Part shown: positions 105-20,405 of the stretch, one piece after another | Layout of the letters: each line of letters opens with the position of its first letter | Numbering within the stretch: the stretch's first letter is position 1 | NCBI GenBank assembly: GCA_964593225.1 | Contig: CAZQHJ010000026.1 | Span: 1-20,405, forward strand | Length of the DNA stretch: 20,405 nucleotides | Origin: an uncultured Thiotrichales bacterium | GTDB taxonomy: Bacteria; Pseudomonadota; Gammaproteobacteria; HK1 | Direction: 5' to 3' | Program-made: the position numbers and the translations under genes | Notes under the pieces: generated by a model | The model's input: the letters and a program-made list of their open reading frames with translations, nothing else | What the model was told of the DNA's origin: nothing | Databases searched by the model: none

Positions 105-394
105 GGTAGTGGCTCAGTTTGAAATTTCTATGTTTCCATGCCCCGAATGGGGCTATGTACATTAGCCCGGGTTTGCGCGAAGCGTTACCCTGGGGAAGAG
201 GGAACCCTACGACACAACCCCAACGGGGTTGTGTCGGAAGACGTTGATAACGTTAGTGATACACAACCCCCTTGGGGTTGTTCCCACCCTCCCGCCAACC
301 CGGGGTTGCGCGAAGCGCTACCCCGGGCTTGTTATACGTAGCCCCTATCGGGGCAAAAAAATGCCAATCGAGGATTTCAAACTGAGCCACTACC
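105..394. mobile_element. MITE-like non-coding structured element, ~290 bp, bounded by perfect 21-bp terminal inverted repeats GGTAGTGGCTCAGTTTGAAAT (105-125) and its inverse (374-394)
   Basis: Read directly from the sequence: perfect 21-bp inverted repeats. Internal hairpins GCCCCGAATGGGGC (139-152) and GCCCCTATCGGGGC (341-354). 10-bp-stem hairpins ACACAACCCCaacGGGGTTGTGT (211-235) and ACACAACCCCcttGGGGTTGT (259-279). Two ~30-bp direct repeats CCCGGGtTTGCGCGAAGCGtTACCC (~166-195) and CCCGGGgTTGCGCGAAGCGcTACCCC (~299-328). No credible ORF. No clean target-site duplication found. Confidence 0.5.
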
Positions 395-9567: not shown

Positions 9568-11424
9568 GTGACACAAAAACAGAATCCTATCCCGGAGCGA
9601 GAGAAATCTTCCGGTCATCCTTCCGAGGTTCACCAACTAAAGGAAAAGTTGGAACAGGAGGTCTCCAATCTGAAAGAGGCAAATAATAGGGTATCGAAAA
9701 AACTGACGGTTTTCCCAACATTCACGATGTTGCTTTTGGTGACGATATTTCTTCTATTTATTTCCTCTGTCGTCGTGAATGACATACGTATGGCCAGGCA
9801 GATAGAAAACCGGATAGAGCTATCCAAAGGCGAGATAGAATCCTCGCTAACGGATGCCATCACGCATGATATGCTGGGTGAAATAGCGAAAATACAAGAT
9901 ATATCCGATGGCGCCGCACTGATCGAAAGATTATATAAAATCGCTGAAGAAACCAATCAACAGCTGAAAGATAAAATCAGCCGAATAGAATTTCAGCAGA
10001 ATATGATTGTCGATGGCGCGCAAGGGGCCCTGGAGAATATGTATTTTATATTCACCGCGGTGGCGGCCTTGTTTTCCCTCCTCGGCATTTACTTTGCCTA
10101 TCGGCATATTCACTTGGAATCGAAAAAGGAGGAATCACAGGAAAGGCACGACCAGGAAATGAGAGGCCTGGTGGGATCATTCCAGAACAACATCAATACA
10201 ATCAATTCTCTGGTGGCCACATTGGAGAAAAGCTACGCATATAGACAAATTGTAGAAGAGCAAATAGAAGAACTAAAAGAAGATGCCTCTTTATTCGAGA
10301 AGCGTCACAAGGAAGATGAAGAAAAGTTTCGTCAATCCATTGCTGAGCTCAACGCTAATGCGGTAAGGCTCTACAAAGCAAATATCTCCAGAACCACGTT
10401 GAATCAGGAGGAACGAAGGCGAGAGTTGAATGCTTTCGCTAACCGGATGAGCAATATGGAATCCAGTCGCGACATAGCAAGCGATATAAATCCCTTCTGT
10501 TATTATATGCGCGGATTGAGCCATGTCGCCAACTATAGATTCATGGATGGAATTAGGGATCTGGAAACTGCCTATAAAAAAGGCACGGACGATTTGTCAG
10601 GAATAAAAGAAGAAAACTATGCAGGGGAGCACATAATCCGTATACGCGAAGATCTAAATAAGATGCTCGTTGACGCGTGTTACTTTCAGGCCAATTCCTA
10701 TAAGAATCTGGGAAAATATAAAGAGAGTATTGCCAAGTTCTCCGAGGCCATTCGGCTCGATCCCAAACACCTGGACTCACTTGTTACCAGAGTACAGGTG
10801 ATGTTCTTCGATAAAGATGTCCCATTTGGAGCGGTTGAAGAAGAGTGTGAAAAACTGGATCGGGCATTCAATTCGTTCAGTGATGCGGACGTTGACGAGG
10901 CTGCCTTGAAAGAGGCGAAAAAATTCCTGAAACTTTACCAGGGAAATATGTATTTAAGTAAGGAGAAGCGACTCTTGCCGAAATTCCGTGCCGCATATGA
11001 GAAGTATGAGGATAAGGCGAAGGCACTGGAATTCTACGGGCAGGCATATGATGATTCTCCATCGGCTCGCCCTGCCTTTGCCGTTGCGCAGGCTATGGAG
11101 GGCGTTGGGCCATCCTCCTGGAGAAGGGGAGAAACACCGGAGAAGATGTATGAACGAGCAATAACAAAACTAAAGGATAGGGTAACACACGACCACGACC
11201 TCATATATTCCGTCATGTTGTACTATATGTTGGCCATTTGCGCGTGCAATCTACCGAGGAGAAAAGAAAGCGCGGAAATGTACTTATCACAAGCGCGACA
11301 GTGTTTAAAAGAGTTGCCTGGCGATATCACTTACTTCTCGCCCATGAACAAAATCAGATTGAAGCGGGCGGAAATATTGGAAGAAATGAACGAATTCGAG
11401 CGATCTTTTATAAAAAATAGTTGA
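9568..11424 (+). CDS. Hypothetical 618-aa membrane protein: two TM helices bracketing a ~90-aa loop, then coiled coil and TPR-like C-terminal repeats; markedly AT-rich gene
   Basis: GTG start with RBS AGAGGAAA. TM1 VFPTFTMLLLVTIFLLFISSVVV and TM2 MYFIFTAVAALFSLLGIYFAY. TPR-like ANSYKNLGKYKESIAKFSEAIRLDPKHLDS. GC is visibly lower than the flanks. 26 bp downstream of the DUF4407-like gene. Confidence 0.65.
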   Translation: MTQKQNPIPEREKSSGHPSEVHQLKEKLEQEVSNLKEANNRVSKKLTVFPTFTMLLLVTIFLLFISSVVVNDIRMARQIENRIELSKGEIESSLTDAITHDMLGEIAKIQDISDGAALIERLYKIAEETNQQLKDKISRIEFQQNMIVDGAQGALENMYFIFTAVAALFSLLGIYFAYRHIHLESKKEESQERHDQEMRGLVGSFQNNINTINSLVATLEKSYAYRQIVEEQIEELKEDASLFEKRHKEDEEKFRQSIAELNANAVRLYKANISRTTLNQEERRRELNAFANRMSNMESSRDIASDINPFCYYMRGLSHVANYRFMDGIRDLETAYKKGTDDLSGIKEENYAGEHIIRIREDLNKMLVDACYFQANSYKNLGKYKESIAKFSEAIRLDPKHLDSLVTRVQVMFFDKDVPFGAVEEECEKLDRAFNSFSDADVDEAALKEAKKFLKLYQGNMYLSKEKRLLPKFRAAYEKYEDKAKALEFYGQAYDDSPSARPAFAVAQAMEGVGPSSWRRGETPEKMYERAITKLKDRVTHDHDLIYSVMLYYMLAICACNLPRRKESAEMYLSQARQCLKELPGDITYFSPMNKIRLKRAEILEEMNEFERSFIKNS

Positions 11425-11505
11425 TGATCGGCCTCTCGAGTGTATTAAAAATTTATCCGGTTTTAAGGGTTCGTAGCGAGAGGAAGTGGAGTCGGGAAAG
11501 AAATC

Positions 11506-12993
11506 GTGAACAAAAACGCCAACCTATACACACAATTCACCCATCACTTCCCCGAGGACCGCTCCCGAATCGTCATCGGGACGCCCACCGGGCAAAGCCG
11601 GTCCTATGGAGAGCTGGAACACCGGAGCGCCCGCCTTGCCAACCGCCTCACGGGGCTCGGCATCGGCAAGGGGGACCGGATTGCCGTCCTGGTGGAAAAA
11701 TCCCCCGAAGCGCTTTTCCTATATCTCGCCTGCCTCCGGGCCGGGATCATCTACCTGCCGCTCAATACCGCCTACCGATTACCGGAAATCGATTATTTCT
11801 TCTCCGACGCGGAGCCCAAGGCCGTGGTGTGTCGGCCCAAGGCATGGGAAGAGATCGCCCCACTGGCGGCGCGACACGGAATCGGACAGGTCCTTACCCT
11901 GGGAGAAGAAGGGGAGGGGACGCTTATCGAGATGGCCGGATCGGGTGATTCGGAATTCGAGACGGTCCCTTGCAAGGAAGAGGAAATTGCGGCCATCCTG
12001 TACACCTCCGGCACCACCGGACAGCCCAAGGGCGCCCTGTTGACCCACGGGAATCTTGCTACCAACGCGCTTACGCTAAAAAAGGCGTGGCGTTGGACCT
12101 CATCCGATGTGCTGCTCCATGCACTGCCGCTTTTCCATGTACACGGCCTCTTCGTGGCCTGCCATTGTGTGTTGATGAGCGGGGCCAGGATGTTCCTGCT
12201 GCCAAGGTTCCATGTGGATTCCGTATTGGCCCGGCTACCCCAATCGACGGTGTTCATGGGCGTGCCCACCTATTACAGTCGGCTATTGATGGAACAGGAA
12301 TTCGACGCCGATGCCTGCCGCGCCATGCGCCTGTTTATCTCGGGATCCGCGCCATTGCCGGAAAACGTCTTCCATGCCTTCCGGGCGCGTACCGGCCACG
12401 CCATCCTGGAACGCTACGGCATGACGGAAACCCTCATGAATACCTCCAACCCCTACGATGGCGAGAGAAAACCCGGTAGCGCCGGACCGGCATTGCCGAA
12501 TGTCGGTGTGCGCATCGTCAATGCGTCACCGGAAGGGGTTGGGGACATCCAGGTCAAGGGGCCGAACGTCTTCAAGGGATACTGGCGTCTGCCGGAAAAG
12601 ACCGCGCAGGAATTTACGTCGGATGGTTGGTTTCGGACCGGCGATCTTGGGACCCTGGACGAGGCGGGATACCTCTTTATCGTCGGTCGGGAAAAGGATC
12701 TCATCATCACCGGCGGCTACAATGTCTATCCCCGGGAGGTGGAACGCGTCCTGGATAGCATCGATGGTATACGGGAGTCGGCCGTCATCGGCCTGCCCGA
12801 TGTGGATTATGGGGAAAGGCTAACCGCGTTTGTGATACTTGAGCCAAATCGGAAAACCATCACTGCGGAAGAAATCATTGCCATGCTAAAACAGTCCATC
12901 GCAAACTATAAAGTGCCCAAACAGGTACGGTTCATCGACGAATTTCCCAGAAACGCCATGGGAAAGATCCAAAAAAATTTGCTGCGCCATTAG
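11506..12993 (+). CDS. AMP-dependent acyl-CoA synthetase/ligase, malonyl-CoA synthetase (MatB)-like, 495 aa
   Basis: AMP-binding motif I LYTSGTTGQPKGALLTHGNL, YGMTET, TGDLG...GREKDLIITGGYNVYP, and C-terminal K of the ANL superfamily. GTG start preceded by GGGAAAG. Confidence 0.85.
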   Translation: MNKNANLYTQFTHHFPEDRSRIVIGTPTGQSRSYGELEHRSARLANRLTGLGIGKGDRIAVLVEKSPEALFLYLACLRAGIIYLPLNTAYRLPEIDYFFSDAEPKAVVCRPKAWEEIAPLAARHGIGQVLTLGEEGEGTLIEMAGSGDSEFETVPCKEEEIAAILYTSGTTGQPKGALLTHGNLATNALTLKKAWRWTSSDVLLHALPLFHVHGLFVACHCVLMSGARMFLLPRFHVDSVLARLPQSTVFMGVPTYYSRLLMEQEFDADACRAMRLFISGSAPLPENVFHAFRARTGHAILERYGMTETLMNTSNPYDGERKPGSAGPALPNVGVRIVNASPEGVGDIQVKGPNVFKGYWRLPEKTAQEFTSDGWFRTGDLGTLDEAGYLFIVGREKDLIITGGYNVYPREVERVLDSIDGIRESAVIGLPDVDYGERLTAFVILEPNRKTITAEEIIAMLKQSIANYKVPKQVRFIDEFPRNAMGKIQKNLLRH

Positions 12994-12996
12994 GTG

Positions 12997-13216
12997 CAGG
13001 GCAACCGAATGAAACTGTTTTCCAATTGCCATTGACGTATTTTGTTGCCGGAACATAGCCCTTTTGAGGAATTCGAAGGCAAGTTCGAAGCTTGGTCTCC
13101 TTACTATCGATAGTCAAAACCGGGCGATTTCAACTAAAACGGGCTCTGTTGGACACCGGAAACACCTCCATTTGCCAGATTTGTCAATATAAAAATACTT
13201 TCATTCGGTTGCCCTG
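12997..13216. mobile_element. MITE: 220-bp AT-rich non-coding element with perfect 18-bp terminal inverted repeats CAGGGCAACCGAATGAAA (12997-13014 / 13199-13216), flanked by a 10-bp direct target-site duplication CCATTAGGTG (12987-12996 and 13217-13226)
   Basis: All read directly from the sequence. The left duplication copy contains the TAG stop of the acyl-CoA synthetase gene. No ORF in the interior; the imperfect inverted repeat extends to ~26 bp. Confidence 0.6.
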
Positions 13217-13591
13217 CCATTAGGTGTAGCATTCCATGAAATTCTGATAAACTCTGTTTTTCGGGAACAAAGCCGGGAATACCGGATTGTGCTTCCGACT
13301 AAGGCAAGAATGCGCGAGAGAGCTGCGTTTACGAAAGGTAAGTGGGCATTTCCTCGTATCTTCAACGCACTCAGGGAGTACAGATGGATTTGTATATCGC
13401 TTATTTTCATTCATAATAAGCTTTATCCGCCCTCGTGTGTAACTTTTTTCCGGCAAGCTATTGATTTTCCGAATGCCGTTTTTTAGCATGGACCGAAGAT
13501 AATGGCGCCGGAAAAAAGTTGCACGCGAAAGTTTTTCCGTATAAAACTTGTTTTCAATCAATTTTCCGTTAACTAACGATGGAGACTGCAA

Positions 13592-14059
13592 ATGCCTACT
13601 TTCGTTCGTACCGAAAAGTGTGACGGCTGCAAGGGGCAAGACAAAACCGCTTGCATGTACATTTGCCCACACGATCTCATGAAGTTGGACAAGGATGGGA
13701 CTGATACCGGTAACGCCATGAAGGCCTACAACCAAGAGCCGGAGCAATGCTGGGAGTGCTACTCCTGCGTGAAGATTTGCCCGCAAAACGCCATCGAATG
13801 CCGCCACTACGCCGACGTCGTACCCCTCGGTGGCTCCGTACAACCCCTGCGCGGTACCGATTCCATCATGTGGACCATCAAGTTCCGTAACGGTACACTC
13901 AAGCGCTTCAAATTCCCCATCCGCACCACCCCCGAAGGCTCCATCGACCCCTACAAGGGCAAGCCCGCCGCCGAGATGTCCAAAATCGAAGAACCCGGTT
14001 TCTTCTGCCAGGAAAACGGTTTCCGGGCCGGCGATCGCAGCGAGTTGATTTGCCTGTAG
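13592..14059 (+). CDS. aprB: Adenylylsulfate (APS) reductase beta subunit AprB (2x[4Fe-4S])
   Basis: MPTFVRTEKCDGCKG...CMYICP and CWECYSCVKICP cysteine clusters, plus the conserved AprB C-terminal tail (MWTIKFRNG...RFKFPIRTTPEGS). RBS GGAGA. Confidence 0.9.
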   Translation: MPTFVRTEKCDGCKGQDKTACMYICPHDLMKLDKDGTDTGNAMKAYNQEPEQCWECYSCVKICPQNAIECRHYADVVPLGGSVQPLRGTDSIMWTIKFRNGTLKRFKFPIRTTPEGSIDPYKGKPAAEMSKIEEPGFFCQENGFRAGDRSELICL

Positions 14060-14124
14060 ACAAGGGCCCTCGCGCTTACAGTTGGGTAAATAATTAAATT
14101 AAAAACCATTCGAGGATCAAAGTA

Positions 14125-16116
14125 ATGTCTGATGGTATTTTTGGTAATCCCCAGGTTATCGAGGAAGAGGTCGATATCCTATTGATTGGTGGTGGTATGG
14201 CCTGTTGTGGTGCCGCCTTTGAAATCATGCGGTGGCTCGAAGCCGAGGGCAGTGGCCTCAAGGTAAAGTTGGTCGACAAGGCCGCCATGGATCGCTCCGG
14301 CGCCGTGGCCCAGGGACTGTCCGCCATCAACACCTATATCGGTACAGAGCAGGATCCCGCCGACTATGCCCGCATGGTCTCCAACGACCTCATGGGCATC
14401 ACCCGCGACGATTTGGCCTATGATCTCGGTCGCCATGTGGACGAATCCGTGCATCTGTTCGAAGAATGGGGCCTGCCCATTTGGAAGACCGACGAAAACG
14501 GCGAGCGTCACGATGGCTCCAAGGGTCTGCCCGCGCTGAAAGACGGCGGCAAACCCGTGCGTTCCGGTAAGTGGCAAATCATGATCAACGGTGAATCCTA
14601 CAAGTGGATCGTCGCCGAAGCCGCCAAGAAGGCGCTGGGTGTGGACAACATCCAGGAGCGCGTCTTCATCGTCAAGCTGGTCAACGACAAAAACAAACCC
14701 AATCAGGTCTGTGGCGCGGTCGGTTTCTCCGTTCGCGAAAACAAGATCTATGTCTACAAGTTCAAGGCCTGCCTACTGGCCGCCGGTGGTTGCGTGAACA
14801 TCTTCCGTCCGCGTTCCGTGGGCGAAGGCACGGGCCGCGCTTGGTACCCCGTCTGGAATTCCGGTTCCACCTACTCCATGGCCGCCGAGGCCGGCGCCGA
14901 GCTGACCATGATGGAAAACCGCTTCGTGCCGACCCGCTTCAAGGACGGTTACGGTCCGGTAGGCGCTTGGTTCCTGCTCTTCAAGTCCGTTGCGACCAAC
15001 GCCTTGGGCGAGCAGTATATGCAACGCAACAAGGAGATGCTGGACGACTATCCGCCCTATGGCAAGGCCGCCGTCCCTGCTTCCTGCCTGCGTAACCACC
15101 TCATGCTCAAAGAGATGAAGGAAGGCCGCGGTCCCATCTACATGGATACCGTCACGGCGCTTGCCAATCTCCGCGAAACCCTGAGCCCCCGCGAGGTCAA
15201 GCACCTGGAAGCCGAGGCATGGGAAGACTTCCTGGATATGTGCGTCGGTCAGTGCGGTATCTGGGTCGGTGAAAACATTGAGCCCGAGAAGAAGAACTCC
15301 GAACTCATGCCCACCGAGCCCTACCTGCTGGGTTCCCATTCCGGTTGTTGCGGCATCTGGGTCTCCGGTCCCACCGATGTCGGTGCGCCCACGGCGGAAA
15401 AAGAAAGCGGCATTCCCTCCCATCTGCCCTCCGGCTGGAACTGGGGTTACCGCTCCATGACCACCGTCAATGGTCTCTTCACGGCTGGCGATGGCGTTGG
15501 CGCCTCCGGTCACAAGTTCTCCTCCGGCTCCCACGCCGAAGGTCGCCTGTGCGCCAAGTCCATGGTCAAGTACTGCGTGGACAATAAGGACTACAAACCC
15601 GAGATGGATACCCCGGTGCAGGAACTGGTGGATGCCATTTATCAGCCCGTCAAGACCTACCTGGAGTTCAAGGACTACACCACCGCCATCGACGTGAACC
15701 CCAACTACATCACGCCGAAGATGCTGCAATTCCGTCTGCAGAAGATCATGGACGAGTACGTTGCGGGTGTGGCCACCTACTACACCACCAACGAGCATAT
15801 GCTGGCGGTTGCCGAGGACAAGCTGGAGATGCTCAAGGAAGACGCGGCCAAGATGCGCGCCAAGGACCTGCACGAACTGCTGCGGGCCTGGGAGAACTAC
15901 CACCGCATCCTGACGGCTGAAGCCCACATGAAACACATCCAGTTCCGCCAGGAAAGCCGTTATCCCGGTTTCTACTATCGCGCGGACAAAAACTTCGTGG
16001 ACGAAAAGAATTGGAAGTGCTTCGTGAACTCCATCTACGACAAGAGTACCAAGAAGTGGACCTGCTTCAAGCGCGCCCACACGGATCTGGTCGACAAGTC
16101 GAAGCTGTTCAAGTAA
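14125..16116 (+). CDS. aprA: Adenylylsulfate (APS) reductase alpha subunit AprA (FAD flavoprotein), 663 aa
   Basis: FAD fingerprint DILLIGGGMACCGAAFE. Length and motifs match the AprA / fumarate-reductase flavoprotein family. Immediately downstream of aprB, with RBS GAGGA. Confidence 0.9.
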   Translation: MSDGIFGNPQVIEEEVDILLIGGGMACCGAAFEIMRWLEAEGSGLKVKLVDKAAMDRSGAVAQGLSAINTYIGTEQDPADYARMVSNDLMGITRDDLAYDLGRHVDESVHLFEEWGLPIWKTDENGERHDGSKGLPALKDGGKPVRSGKWQIMINGESYKWIVAEAAKKALGVDNIQERVFIVKLVNDKNKPNQVCGAVGFSVRENKIYVYKFKACLLAAGGCVNIFRPRSVGEGTGRAWYPVWNSGSTYSMAAEAGAELTMMENRFVPTRFKDGYGPVGAWFLLFKSVATNALGEQYMQRNKEMLDDYPPYGKAAVPASCLRNHLMLKEMKEGRGPIYMDTVTALANLRETLSPREVKHLEAEAWEDFLDMCVGQCGIWVGENIEPEKKNSELMPTEPYLLGSHSGCCGIWVSGPTDVGAPTAEKESGIPSHLPSGWNWGYRSMTTVNGLFTAGDGVGASGHKFSSGSHAEGRLCAKSMVKYCVDNKDYKPEMDTPVQELVDAIYQPVKTYLEFKDYTTAIDVNPNYITPKMLQFRLQKIMDEYVAGVATYYTTNEHMLAVAEDKLEMLKEDAAKMRAKDLHELLRAWENYHRILTAEAHMKHIQFRQESRYPGFYYRADKNFVDEKNWKCFVNSIYDKSTKKWTCFKRAHTDLVDKSKLFK

Positions 16117-20156: not shown

Positions 20157-20405
20157 TCAAGTCGCAAGTGCAACAGTTGGATCGATGTTGAAAAATAGCT
20201 GATTAGGGGTATCCATGCCAAGGCATTTTCTTGGTCGGTTGTTTAGCTTATCCATGACGCTCCGAGTTTCCACGAGTGTGATTTTGGTGAAATCGGAGCC
20301 CTTGGGAAAGTACTGGCGAATAAGGCCATTGGTGTTCTCATTGAGCCCTGGCTCCCATGAGGCATGGGGGTGAGCGAAGTAGAAGTCTGCGTTCAAGGTT
20401 TTGGC
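20157..20405 (-). mobile_element. IS30-family transposase, C-terminal (DDE-domain end) fragment, running off the window edge. The IS end should lie in ~20090-20156
   Basis: …FYFAHPHASWEPGLNENTNGLIRQYFPKGSDF…LNNRPRKCLGMDTPNQLFF matches the IS30 transposase C-terminal signature (…SWQRGxNENTNGLLRQYFPKGTD…LNxRPRKxLG). Confidence 0.7.

What the first reader, a model, noticed from the sequence alone, without database searches (positions are those of the whole stretch)
12987..13226. Textbook MITE with 10-bp target-site duplication inserted at the stop codon of the acyl-CoA synthetase, upstream of aprBA
Perfect 18-bp terminal inverted repeats (CAGGGCAACCGAATGAAA) are flanked by a direct 10-bp duplication, CCATTAGGTG. 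The left copy provides the synthetase's TAG stop. The interior is ~200 bp, AT-rich and non-coding. The insertion sits ~375 bp upstream of aprB inside the ~600-bp aprBA leader/promoter region, where it could donate promoter elements or alter regulation of a core dissimilatory sulfur gene. Inside the MITE there is a TTGACG and a TTGTCA-N17 hexamer.
Basis: seen in the sequence. Interest (0 to 1): 0.6.

Follow-up and report, generated by a model that had tools for sequence, protein, structure and literature searches.

The report
ISAs1-type MITE upstream of aprBA
A 220-bp non-coding "jumping" DNA element (a MITE) has inserted three bases after the stop codon of a CoA-ligase gene and 375 bp upstream of the APS-reductase genes in a sulfur-oxidising ciliate symbiont; it is a real but ordinary kind of mobile element, and nothing shows that it affects gene regulation.

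Summary
Window 12997-13216 is a 220-bp non-coding element with perfect 18-nt terminal inverted repeats (CAGGGCAACCGAATGAAA). It is flanked by a perfect 10-bp direct duplication (CCATTAGGTG) that contains the upstream gene's TAG stop. The source is Candidatus Kentrum (Kentron) eta, a sulfur-oxidising gammaproteobacterial symbiont, not a sulfate reducer.

Evidence for an insertion:
- A Kentron-clade relative with the same gene order lacks the element plus one target copy (231-column gap; flanks colinear).
- A 217-bp sibling, 73% identical over its full length with perfect termini, sits in a Mu-like prophage region from another Kentron-series sample.
- Independent assemblies break about k-2 to k-5 nt inside each boundary at k=31 and k=141, as expected for a multicopy repeat.

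The parent family is probably ISAs1, not IS4:
- Annotated ISAs1 elements end in CAGGG(C) and make 10-bp duplications.
- Ruminococcus elements with the identical 18-mer also make 10-bp duplications.
- One Ruminococcus element holds a weak DDE_Tnp_1_assoc remnant.

No autonomous parent and no second K. eta copy could be retrieved. Promoter-like hexamers are at chance level, so promoter donation is unsupported. Verdict: a genuine MITE, a new member of a known kind, of modest interest.

The parts
12987..12996 (+). Left copy of the 10-bp target-site duplication CCATTAGGTG. It contains the synthetase TAG stop at 12991-12993.
   Evidence: a single homologous copy in relative L078
12997..13014 (+). 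Left terminal inverted repeat CAGGGCAACCGAATGAAA
12997..13216 (.). The MITE itself: 220 bp, non-coding, 44% G+C. It folds as a long hairpin closed by the 18-bp TIR stem.
   Evidence: absent from the orthologous locus L078/L079; sibling L073:77-293 at 73% identity
13199..13216 (-). Right terminal inverted repeat, an exact reverse complement of the left one
13217..13226 (+). Right copy of the target-site duplication CCATTAGGTG
11506..12993 (+). Context: malonyl-/methylmalonyl-CoA synthetase-like AMP-binding enzyme. Its stop codon lies in the duplicated target, so its product is not altered by the insertion.
13592..14059 (+). Context: aprB (APS reductase beta subunit), 375 nt downstream of the element
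14125..16116 (+). Context: aprA (APS reductase alpha subunit)

Best explanation
Window 12997-13216 is a miniature inverted-repeat transposable element (MITE). It is a non-autonomous, non-coding DNA transposon that was cut and pasted, or copied, into the intergenic DNA of Ca. Kentrum eta by a transposase supplied in trans. That transposase recognises the 18-nt termini and makes staggered cuts 10 bp apart in the target; repair of the cuts duplicated CCATTAGGTG. The transposase is most likely of the ISAs1 family (DDE_Tnp_1_assoc + DDE_Tnp_1). The insertion landed 3 bp after the stop codon of the CoA-ligase gene, at the far end of the spacer from aprB. It therefore leaves both coding sequences, and the conserved aprB-proximal leader, intact. 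It is most likely selectively neutral selfish DNA. Shown here: the structure, the insertion relative to a relative's empty site, the existence of a sibling, and termini and duplication length that match ISAs1 elements. Inferred: multiple copies in K. eta (from assembly breaks), the identity of the mobilising transposase, and neutrality.
For: Structure: perfect 18-nt TIRs and a perfect abutting 10-bp duplication. Empty site: L078/L079 (synthetase 72% identical, inside the 67-76% range of named Kentron species, while the non-Kentron hits listed are at most about 61%) keep the order sat-synthetase-aprB-aprA with a 272-bp spacer against 598 bp here. The alignment has a 231-column gap equal to the element plus one target copy, with homology on both sides. 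After in-silico excision the junction is colinear with the relative, with a single 1-nt indel. Sibling: L073:77-293 is 217 bp with both 18-nt termini perfect and is 73% identical over its full length; the interior alignment scores 178 against 59 +/- 9 for shuffles. It lies in a Mu-like prophage region from another sample of the Kentron series. Multicopy behaviour: contigs from the left end at 13024 (four Logan assemblies, k=31) and at 13135 (MEGAHIT k141); contigs from the right start at 13191 and 13078. Penetration into the element is about k-2 to k-5 from each boundary. That is expected when k-mers wholly inside the element are shared with other copies; a presence/absence polymorphism would instead break at the boundary itself. 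Family: Ruminococcus MAG contigs carry the identical 18-mer exactly at the junction of variable flank and conserved interior, and two insertions there have perfect 10-bp duplications. A short Ruminococcus element bounded by this terminus (1 mismatch) contains a fragment whose only Pfam hit is DDE_Tnp_1_assoc (E=0.013; a stitched query gives 4e-4). E. coli ISEc1/H-repeat (YhhI = DDE_Tnp_1_assoc + DDE_Tnp_1) ends in CAGGGAAAGAT / CAGGGCAAGAT. Of 9 annotated ISAs1-family elements examined, 5 have CAGGG termini and 3 of those have perfect 10-bp duplications; the Methylocystis terminus CAGGGCGATCGGGTGAAG matches ours at 13 of 18 positions and all differences are transitions.
Against: No second copy was seen directly in K. 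eta, because the source genome is not in the searchable DNA collections. No autonomous IS with this exact terminus and an intact transposase was recovered anywhere. The sibling has no flanking duplication. No copies occur in about 100 kb of other Kentron loci sampled. The ISAs1 assignment rests on termini, duplication length and a sub-threshold domain remnant from a different phylum. The empty site comes from a relative that is only about 72% identical in the neighbouring protein, so precise loss in that lineage cannot be formally excluded.
Confidence: 0.85

Rival explanations
1. It is a MITE, but derived from another IS family that also gives roughly 10-bp duplications, such as the IS4 family suggested by the first reader, and not from ISAs1.
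For: No intact parent transposase was found. The only direct protein link to ISAs1 is below the Pfam cut-off. Four of 9 annotated ISAs1 elements showed no CAGGG...CCCTG pair in my simple scan, so the end motif is not universal in the family.
Against: The CAGGG(C) start together with a 10-bp duplication was found on real ISAs1 elements from three genera. The first 8 nt match E. coli ISEc1 and 13 of 18 nt match a Methylocystis ISAs1 element. From memory, untested here, IS4-family ends begin CT or CAT and not CAGGG.
Confidence: 0.1
2. It is a domesticated or exapted regulatory element. The MITE contributes a promoter, or an RNA hairpin acting as a terminator, stabiliser or RNase III site, that changes expression of aprBA or of the synthetase. 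In that respect it would work like Correia or ERIC elements.
For: Position: 3 nt after a stop codon and 375 nt upstream of aprB. As RNA it folds to -72 kcal/mol, z = -5.2. A TTGACG hexamer reading toward aprB is conserved between the two copies. Six predicted interior pairs show compensatory changes between the two copies.
Against: Promoter-like sites are at chance frequency and no intrinsic terminator is predicted. The outward TTGCCA-N16-AATACT match is not conserved in the sibling. Most of the fold energy comes from the TIR stem that any MITE has. Compensatory pairs counted on 2 sequences, for a structure chosen by the same program, are not evidence. The relative runs the same operon region without the element. 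The sibling sits in an unrelated context, a prophage.
Confidence: 0.1
3. It is not mobile. It is a native palindromic intergenic element (REP-like, operator or terminator), or a one-off internal-deletion remnant of an IS that decayed in place.
For: Only one copy is directly visible in K. eta. The sibling lacks a target duplication.
Against: The abutting perfect 10-bp duplication. Absence from the syntenic site in L078/L079. A sibling of nearly the same length (217 against 220 bp) in a completely different genomic context. Identical termini on elements that make 10-bp duplications in Ruminococcus. Assembly breaks that scale with k.
Confidence: 0.04

Closest known systems
ISAs1-family insertion sequences (e.g. 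E. coli ISEc1/H-repeat, ISAs12, ISAzs5, ISAeme2)
   Same: Termini begin CAGGG(C). The first 8 nt are identical to the ISEc1 right end, and 13 of 18 nt match a Methylocystis ISAs1 element. A 10-bp target duplication was seen on three annotated ISAs1 elements.
   Different: The element is 220 bp with no transposase gene, against 1.2-1.45 kb with one DDE_Tnp_1_assoc + DDE_Tnp_1 ORF in the elements measured here. No interior similarity to any ISAs1 element was found. It can only be a non-autonomous derivative or a hitch-hiker on that transposase.
Bacterial MITEs in general (e.g. MaeMITEa-h of Microcystis aeruginosa, 176-429 bp, PMC2779907; Correia, ERIC and RUP elements, from my own knowledge)
   Same: Size, lack of coding capacity, TIRs, target duplication, intergenic location, hairpin-forming potential and a tendency to fragment short-read assemblies.
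   Different: Copy number in the host was not measured. No regulatory or RNA-processing role was shown. The termini differ from those families. I found no paper linking a MITE to ISAs1 and none containing this terminus sequence.
IS4-family-derived MITEs
   Same: A duplication length of about 10 bp is compatible with several IS4 subgroups (from memory).
   Different: The termini CAGGGCAA... are those verified here on ISAs1 elements. IS4-type ends (CT.../CAT..., from memory) do not fit. This was not tested against real IS4 elements here.

Membership tests
MITE (non-autonomous TIR transposon) | Short (under about 600 bp) with no transposase or other credible coding capacity | tested here: met
   220 bp; the longest ORFs overlapping it are 43 aa or less (the 42-aa one lies wholly inside) and all start with TTG; no similarity to YhhI; no Rfam family
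MITE (non-autonomous TIR transposon) | Terminal inverted repeats | tested here: met
   18/18 nt; 0.04 matches expected by chance
MITE (non-autonomous TIR transposon) | Target-site duplication abutting both ends | tested here: met
   CCATTAGGTG at 12987-12996 and 13217-13226
MITE (non-autonomous TIR transposon) | Empty (unoccupied) site in a related genome | tested here: met
   L078/L079: 231-column gap equal to the element plus one target copy, flanks colinear
MITE (non-autonomous TIR transposon) | Several dispersed copies in the same genome | tested here: inconclusive
   Only indirect evidence: contig ends fall about k-2 to k-5 nt inside each boundary at k=31 and k=141. One sibling occurs in another Kentron-series sample. 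The K. eta genome itself is not in the searchable DNA collections.
MITE (non-autonomous TIR transposon) | An autonomous IS with the same termini present in the same genome or lineage | not testable with these tools
   No DNA search of the K. eta or other Kentron assemblies is available. No such IS was found in the loci fetched.
ISAs1-family derivative | Termini of the CAGGG(C) type | tested here: met
   Compared with ISEc1 and with ISAs12, ISAzs5, ISAeme2 and a Methylocystis element
ISAs1-family derivative | Duplication length characteristic of the family (10 bp on the real elements examined; 8-10 bp from memory of ISfinder) | tested here: met
   10 bp here. 10 bp on 3 annotated ISAs1 elements and on 2 Ruminococcus insertions with the identical terminus.
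ISAs1-family derivative | This exact terminus physically linked to a DDE_Tnp_1_assoc + DDE_Tnp_1 transposase | tested here: inconclusive
   The only link is a decayed fragment in L007:531-714. PF13808 is its sole Pfam hit, at E=0.013 (16 bits against a cut-off of 32.3); a stitched query gives E=4e-4. The search for an intact protein found nothing.
IS4-family derivative | IS4-type termini | not tested
   Considered only from memory (CT/CAT-type ends). The CAGGG ends fit ISAs1 better.
Regulatory MITE (works like Correia/ERIC) | Supplies a promoter, or is co-transcribed and processed, with an effect on neighbouring genes | tested here: inconclusive
   The consensus scan is at chance level and predicts no terminator. 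Hairpin potential is real but generic to MITEs.

The most novel reading that the evidence does not exclude
The element belongs to an undescribed ISAs1-mobilised MITE family whose 18-nt terminus is conserved base for base between Gammaproteobacteria (Kentron) and Firmicutes (Ruminococcus). In this reading it moves between Kentron species on Mu-like phages, is a main cause of the unexplained fragmentation of Kentron assemblies, and at this locus has been co-opted into control of aprBA (the conserved TTGACG hexamer facing aprB, or a 3'-UTR hairpin for the synthetase transcript).
Probability: 0.1. Interest if true: 0.5.

Novelty: new member of a known kind. Interest (0 to 1): 0.3.

Why it matters
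MITEs are well known, so the class is not new. Three things are modestly useful. First, the main text of the Kentron genome paper reports fragmented assemblies despite high coverage and never mentions mobile elements (PMC6593406). This window alone carries this MITE, a second foldback element and an IS30 fragment at the contig end, which points to repeats as a cause of that fragmentation. Second, I found no paper linking a MITE to the ISAs1 family, and an 18-nt terminus identical across phyla says something about how strictly that transposase reads its ends. Third, the insertion marks a lineage-specific change in the spacer upstream of aprBA. Existing Kentron H transcriptomes might show whether that change has any effect, if Kentron H is K. 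eta, which I did not confirm.

Tried and rejected
1. Scanning 596 Gb of genomes with the 18-mer gave 21 loci. About half are single chance matches inside ordinary genes, in line with the roughly 17 chance hits I estimate. None came from Kentron.
2. A metagenome scan with a pattern extended into the subterminal region gave 0 hits. The plain 18-mer gave 27 loci, none with a second arm within 4 kb. The L037/L049/L041 group shares subterminal sequence but is followed by a toxin-like ORF, not a transposase, so I left it unresolved.
3. Cross-species empty sites via Kentron sp. G, FM, DK and MB failed because the synthetase is not next to aprBA there. Only P0007 (L078/L079) kept the synteny.
4. An alternative assembly of the L073 prophage (L076) does not reach the sibling's site.
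5. An exact-protein lookup of the 42-aa ORF inside the element, as a proxy for other copies, found nothing on record.
6. A homology search with a peptide stitched from the Ruminococcus remnants found no candidates. The AprB homology search confirmed the sulfur-oxidiser affinity but gave no usable synteny.
7. BLAST of the terminus and of the whole element against the plasmid collection gave only chance-level hits, best E = 0.2.
8. More viral-collection scans with a conserved subterminal block and with relaxed termini found only L073 again.
9. The IS review that tabulates family features is not held, so I tested the ISAs1 features on real annotated elements instead.
10. Conserved interior RNA structure cannot be judged from only two sequences.

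Full report
OBSERVATION. CAGGGCAACCGAATGAAA lies at 12997-13014 and its exact reverse complement at 13199-13216, which bounds a 220-bp segment. CCATTAGGTG lies at 12987-12996 and 13217-13226, abutting both arms. Allowing 3 mismatches, the 18-mer has only these two occurrences in the 20.4-kb window, against 0.04 expected. The 10-mer also occurs only at these two places. The repeat finder extends the arms to 36 nt at 83% complementarity. The upstream ORF 11506-12993 is an AMP-binding CoA ligase, and its TAG stop (12991-12993) lies inside the left target copy. aprB (13592-14059) and aprA (14125-16116) follow. The interior has 44% G+C against 56% for the window, has no ORF longer than 43 aa and gives no credible Rfam match. 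Other assemblies reproduce both junctions at 100% identity.

SOURCE AND CONTEXT. The CoA ligase is 100% identical to a protein that UniRef names malonyl-CoA/methylmalonyl-CoA synthetase of Candidatus Kentrum eta. The next best hits, at 67-76%, are all other Kentron species, and the non-Kentron hits listed are at most about 61% (taxonomy). Kentron is the thiotrophic ectosymbiont of Kentrophoros ciliates and uses a Sox plus reverse-Dsr pathway (PMC6593406). The closest AprB homologues come from sulfur-oxidising Gammaproteobacteria. AprBA here therefore belongs to sulfur oxidation, not sulfate reduction.

IT IS AN INSERTION. Most Kentron species do not have the synthetase next to aprBA. One Kentron-clade relative (L078/L079; synthetase 72% identical) keeps the order sat-synthetase-aprB-aprA, with a spacer of 272 bp against 598 bp here. 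In the alignment, homology runs up to the target sequence. A 231-column gap follows, which corresponds to the 220-bp element plus one 10-bp target copy. Homology then resumes at once: window TAGCATTCCATGAAATTCTGATAAA against relative CAGTATTTCATAGAATTCTGATAAA. Removing 12997-13226 in silico gives a junction colinear with the relative apart from a 1-nt indel. Because the duplicated target contains the stop codon, the synthetase product (…LLRH*) was not changed by the insertion.

IT HAS RELATIVES. A scan of the viral/prophage collection found L073:77-293, a 217-bp unit with both 18-nt termini perfect. In reverse orientation it aligns with the window element over its entire length at 73% identity. 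The interior alone scores 178 against 59 +/- 9 for shuffled sequence. It lies in a region with Mu-like phage genes (terminase-like, Mu portal and Mu Gam). The protein accessions and ENA sample number belong to the Kentron series. This copy has no flanking duplication.

IT BEHAVES AS A MULTICOPY REPEAT IN K. ETA. Four Logan assemblies (k=31) end at 13024, and a MEGAHIT k141 contig ends at 13135. From the other side, contigs start at 13191 (k=31) and 13078 (k=141). Contigs thus penetrate about k-2 to k-5 nt from each boundary at both values of k. That is what a de Bruijn graph gives when k-mers wholly inside the element are shared with other copies. A presence/absence polymorphism would break the graph at the boundary itself. 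The perfect inverted repeat (19 nt at most) is too short to cause branching at k=31. This evidence is indirect, and I could not search the K. eta genome itself.

PARENT FAMILY. In Ruminococcus MAGs the identical 18-mer sits exactly at the junction between variable flanks and a conserved interior, often at contig ends. Pairing the contig ends shows two insertions, each with a perfect 10-bp duplication (TGTGCCGATA and GTTCTCACCC). A short Ruminococcus element bounded by the terminus (1 mismatch) contains the fragment IVAITAGAEHWNEIEMYCKDR. Its only Pfam hit is DDE_Tnp_1_assoc, the N-terminal domain typical of ISAs1 transposases, at E=0.013 (4e-4 for a stitched query); both are below the curated cut-off. 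I then tested the family's features on real elements. E. coli K-12 ISEc1/H-repeat (YhhI = DDE_Tnp_1_assoc + DDE_Tnp_1) ends in CAGGGAAAGAT / CAGGGCAAGAT. Of nine annotated ISAs1-family elements from plasmids, five have strong CAGGG termini and three of those have perfect 10-bp duplications. The Methylocystis terminus CAGGGCGATCGGGTGAAG matches ours at 13 of 18 positions, and every difference is a transition. Both the termini and the duplication length therefore fit ISAs1. I did not recover an intact transposase attached to this exact terminus.

MECHANISM. Inferred from the established behaviour of DDE transposons: a trans-acting ISAs1-type transposase binds the 18-nt ends and integrates the element at cuts staggered by 10 bp, and repair of those cuts creates the duplication. 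The element folds strongly as single-stranded DNA (-40 kcal/mol, z=-5.3) and as RNA (-72 kcal/mol, z=-5.2), largely because of the TIR stem.

REGULATION. I found no support for an effect on regulation. Promoter-like hexamer pairs number 2 against 1.1 expected, and no intrinsic terminator is predicted. The outward TTGCCA-N16-AATACT match is not conserved in the sibling. A TTGACG hexamer facing aprB is conserved between the two copies, but it lies in the subterminal region where transposase-binding sequence would also be conserved. Six compensatory pairs between two sequences are not evidence of structure. The element lies at the end of the spacer farthest from aprB, and the aprB-proximal conserved blocks are untouched.

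COMPARISON AND NOVELTY. This is a MITE in the ordinary sense. It meets the structural criteria and the empty-site criterion. Copy number in the host and a co-resident parent remain untested. I found no paper tying a MITE to ISAs1 and none containing this terminus sequence. The main text of the Kentron genome paper never mentions mobile elements, although it notes fragmented assemblies. I rate it a new member of a known kind, with interest 0.3.

Noticed in passing
window 105-394: A second, unrelated foldback element of 290 bp. It has a perfect 21-nt TIR GGTAGTGGCTCAGTTTGAAAT (105-125 / 374-394) and three nested inverted repeats. The DNA fold is -93.9 kcal/mol, z=-12.6. No obvious target duplication. 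The same 21-mer occurs in 5 viral contigs, including a two-armed 486-bp unit (L095:1846-2331). In L096 an IS1-type transposase ORF (PF03400, 28.6 bits) lies about 1.5 kb inward of the terminus, but it is not shown to belong to the same element. The GGnnnTG start fits IS1-family ends (from memory).
   Followed up: partly
window 20157-20405 (minus strand): The contig ends inside the C-terminal 82 aa of an IS30-family transposase (NCBIfam NF033563, E=9e-23). The other contigs that reach this region appear to stop at about the same place (judged from their lengths), so an IS30 repeat probably limits the contig.
   Followed up: partly
window 13433-13528: A 22-nt inverted repeat (13433-13454 / 13507-13528, 91% complementary, 52 nt between the arms) lies 64 nt upstream of the aprB start. 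Two contigs from other samples begin exactly at 13507. The window has 31 extra nt between the arms relative to L078. It could be a leader hairpin, an operator or another small insertion.
   Followed up: no
window ~13317-13374 and ~13456-13486: Two further window-specific segments in the synthetase-aprB spacer relative to L078/L079. Together with the MITE they account for the 598-bp against 272-bp difference in spacer length.
   Followed up: no
L073:74-77 (also L074): The sibling MITE abuts, with 1 nt between, the ATG of a called minus-strand gene at the contig end, and it lacks a target duplication. The insertion may have truncated that gene, or the flank may have been rearranged.
   Followed up: no
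L005/L006, L017/L020, L007:531-714, L019:3670-3889: Ruminococcus MAGs carry a multicopy element with the identical 18-nt terminus. It makes 10-bp duplications and shows decayed ISAs1-like N-terminal coding remnants (MKEYFEELSDSREKSNI...; IVAITAGAEHWNEIEMY...). Base-for-base conservation of a terminus across phyla is unusual.
   Followed up: partly
L010:1-72: A contig end binned as Anaerolineales matches 24 of 24 nt of the window element's right arm and then shares TGACAAAT further in. It may be a sibling in an unrelated, or mis-binned, genome.
   Followed up: no
L037/L039/L045/L046/L056, L049, L041: JGI metagenome contigs carry the 18-mer followed by a shared AT-rich subterminal sequence in at least three flank contexts. 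No second arm lies within 4 kb, and in L037/L049 a small toxin-like ORF (my reading, not tested) follows where a transposase would be expected. They may be solo ends or a larger cargo-carrying element.
   Followed up: partly
L063-L071, L078-L085 compared with window 9568-16116: The neighbourhood of the synthetase differs among Kentron species: sat-synthetase-aprBA in L078; polyphosphate kinase upstream in sp. G and DK; a Ham1-like gene downstream in FM; VWA/tubulin-like genes in MB. This indicates frequent rearrangement around this locus.
   Followed up: no
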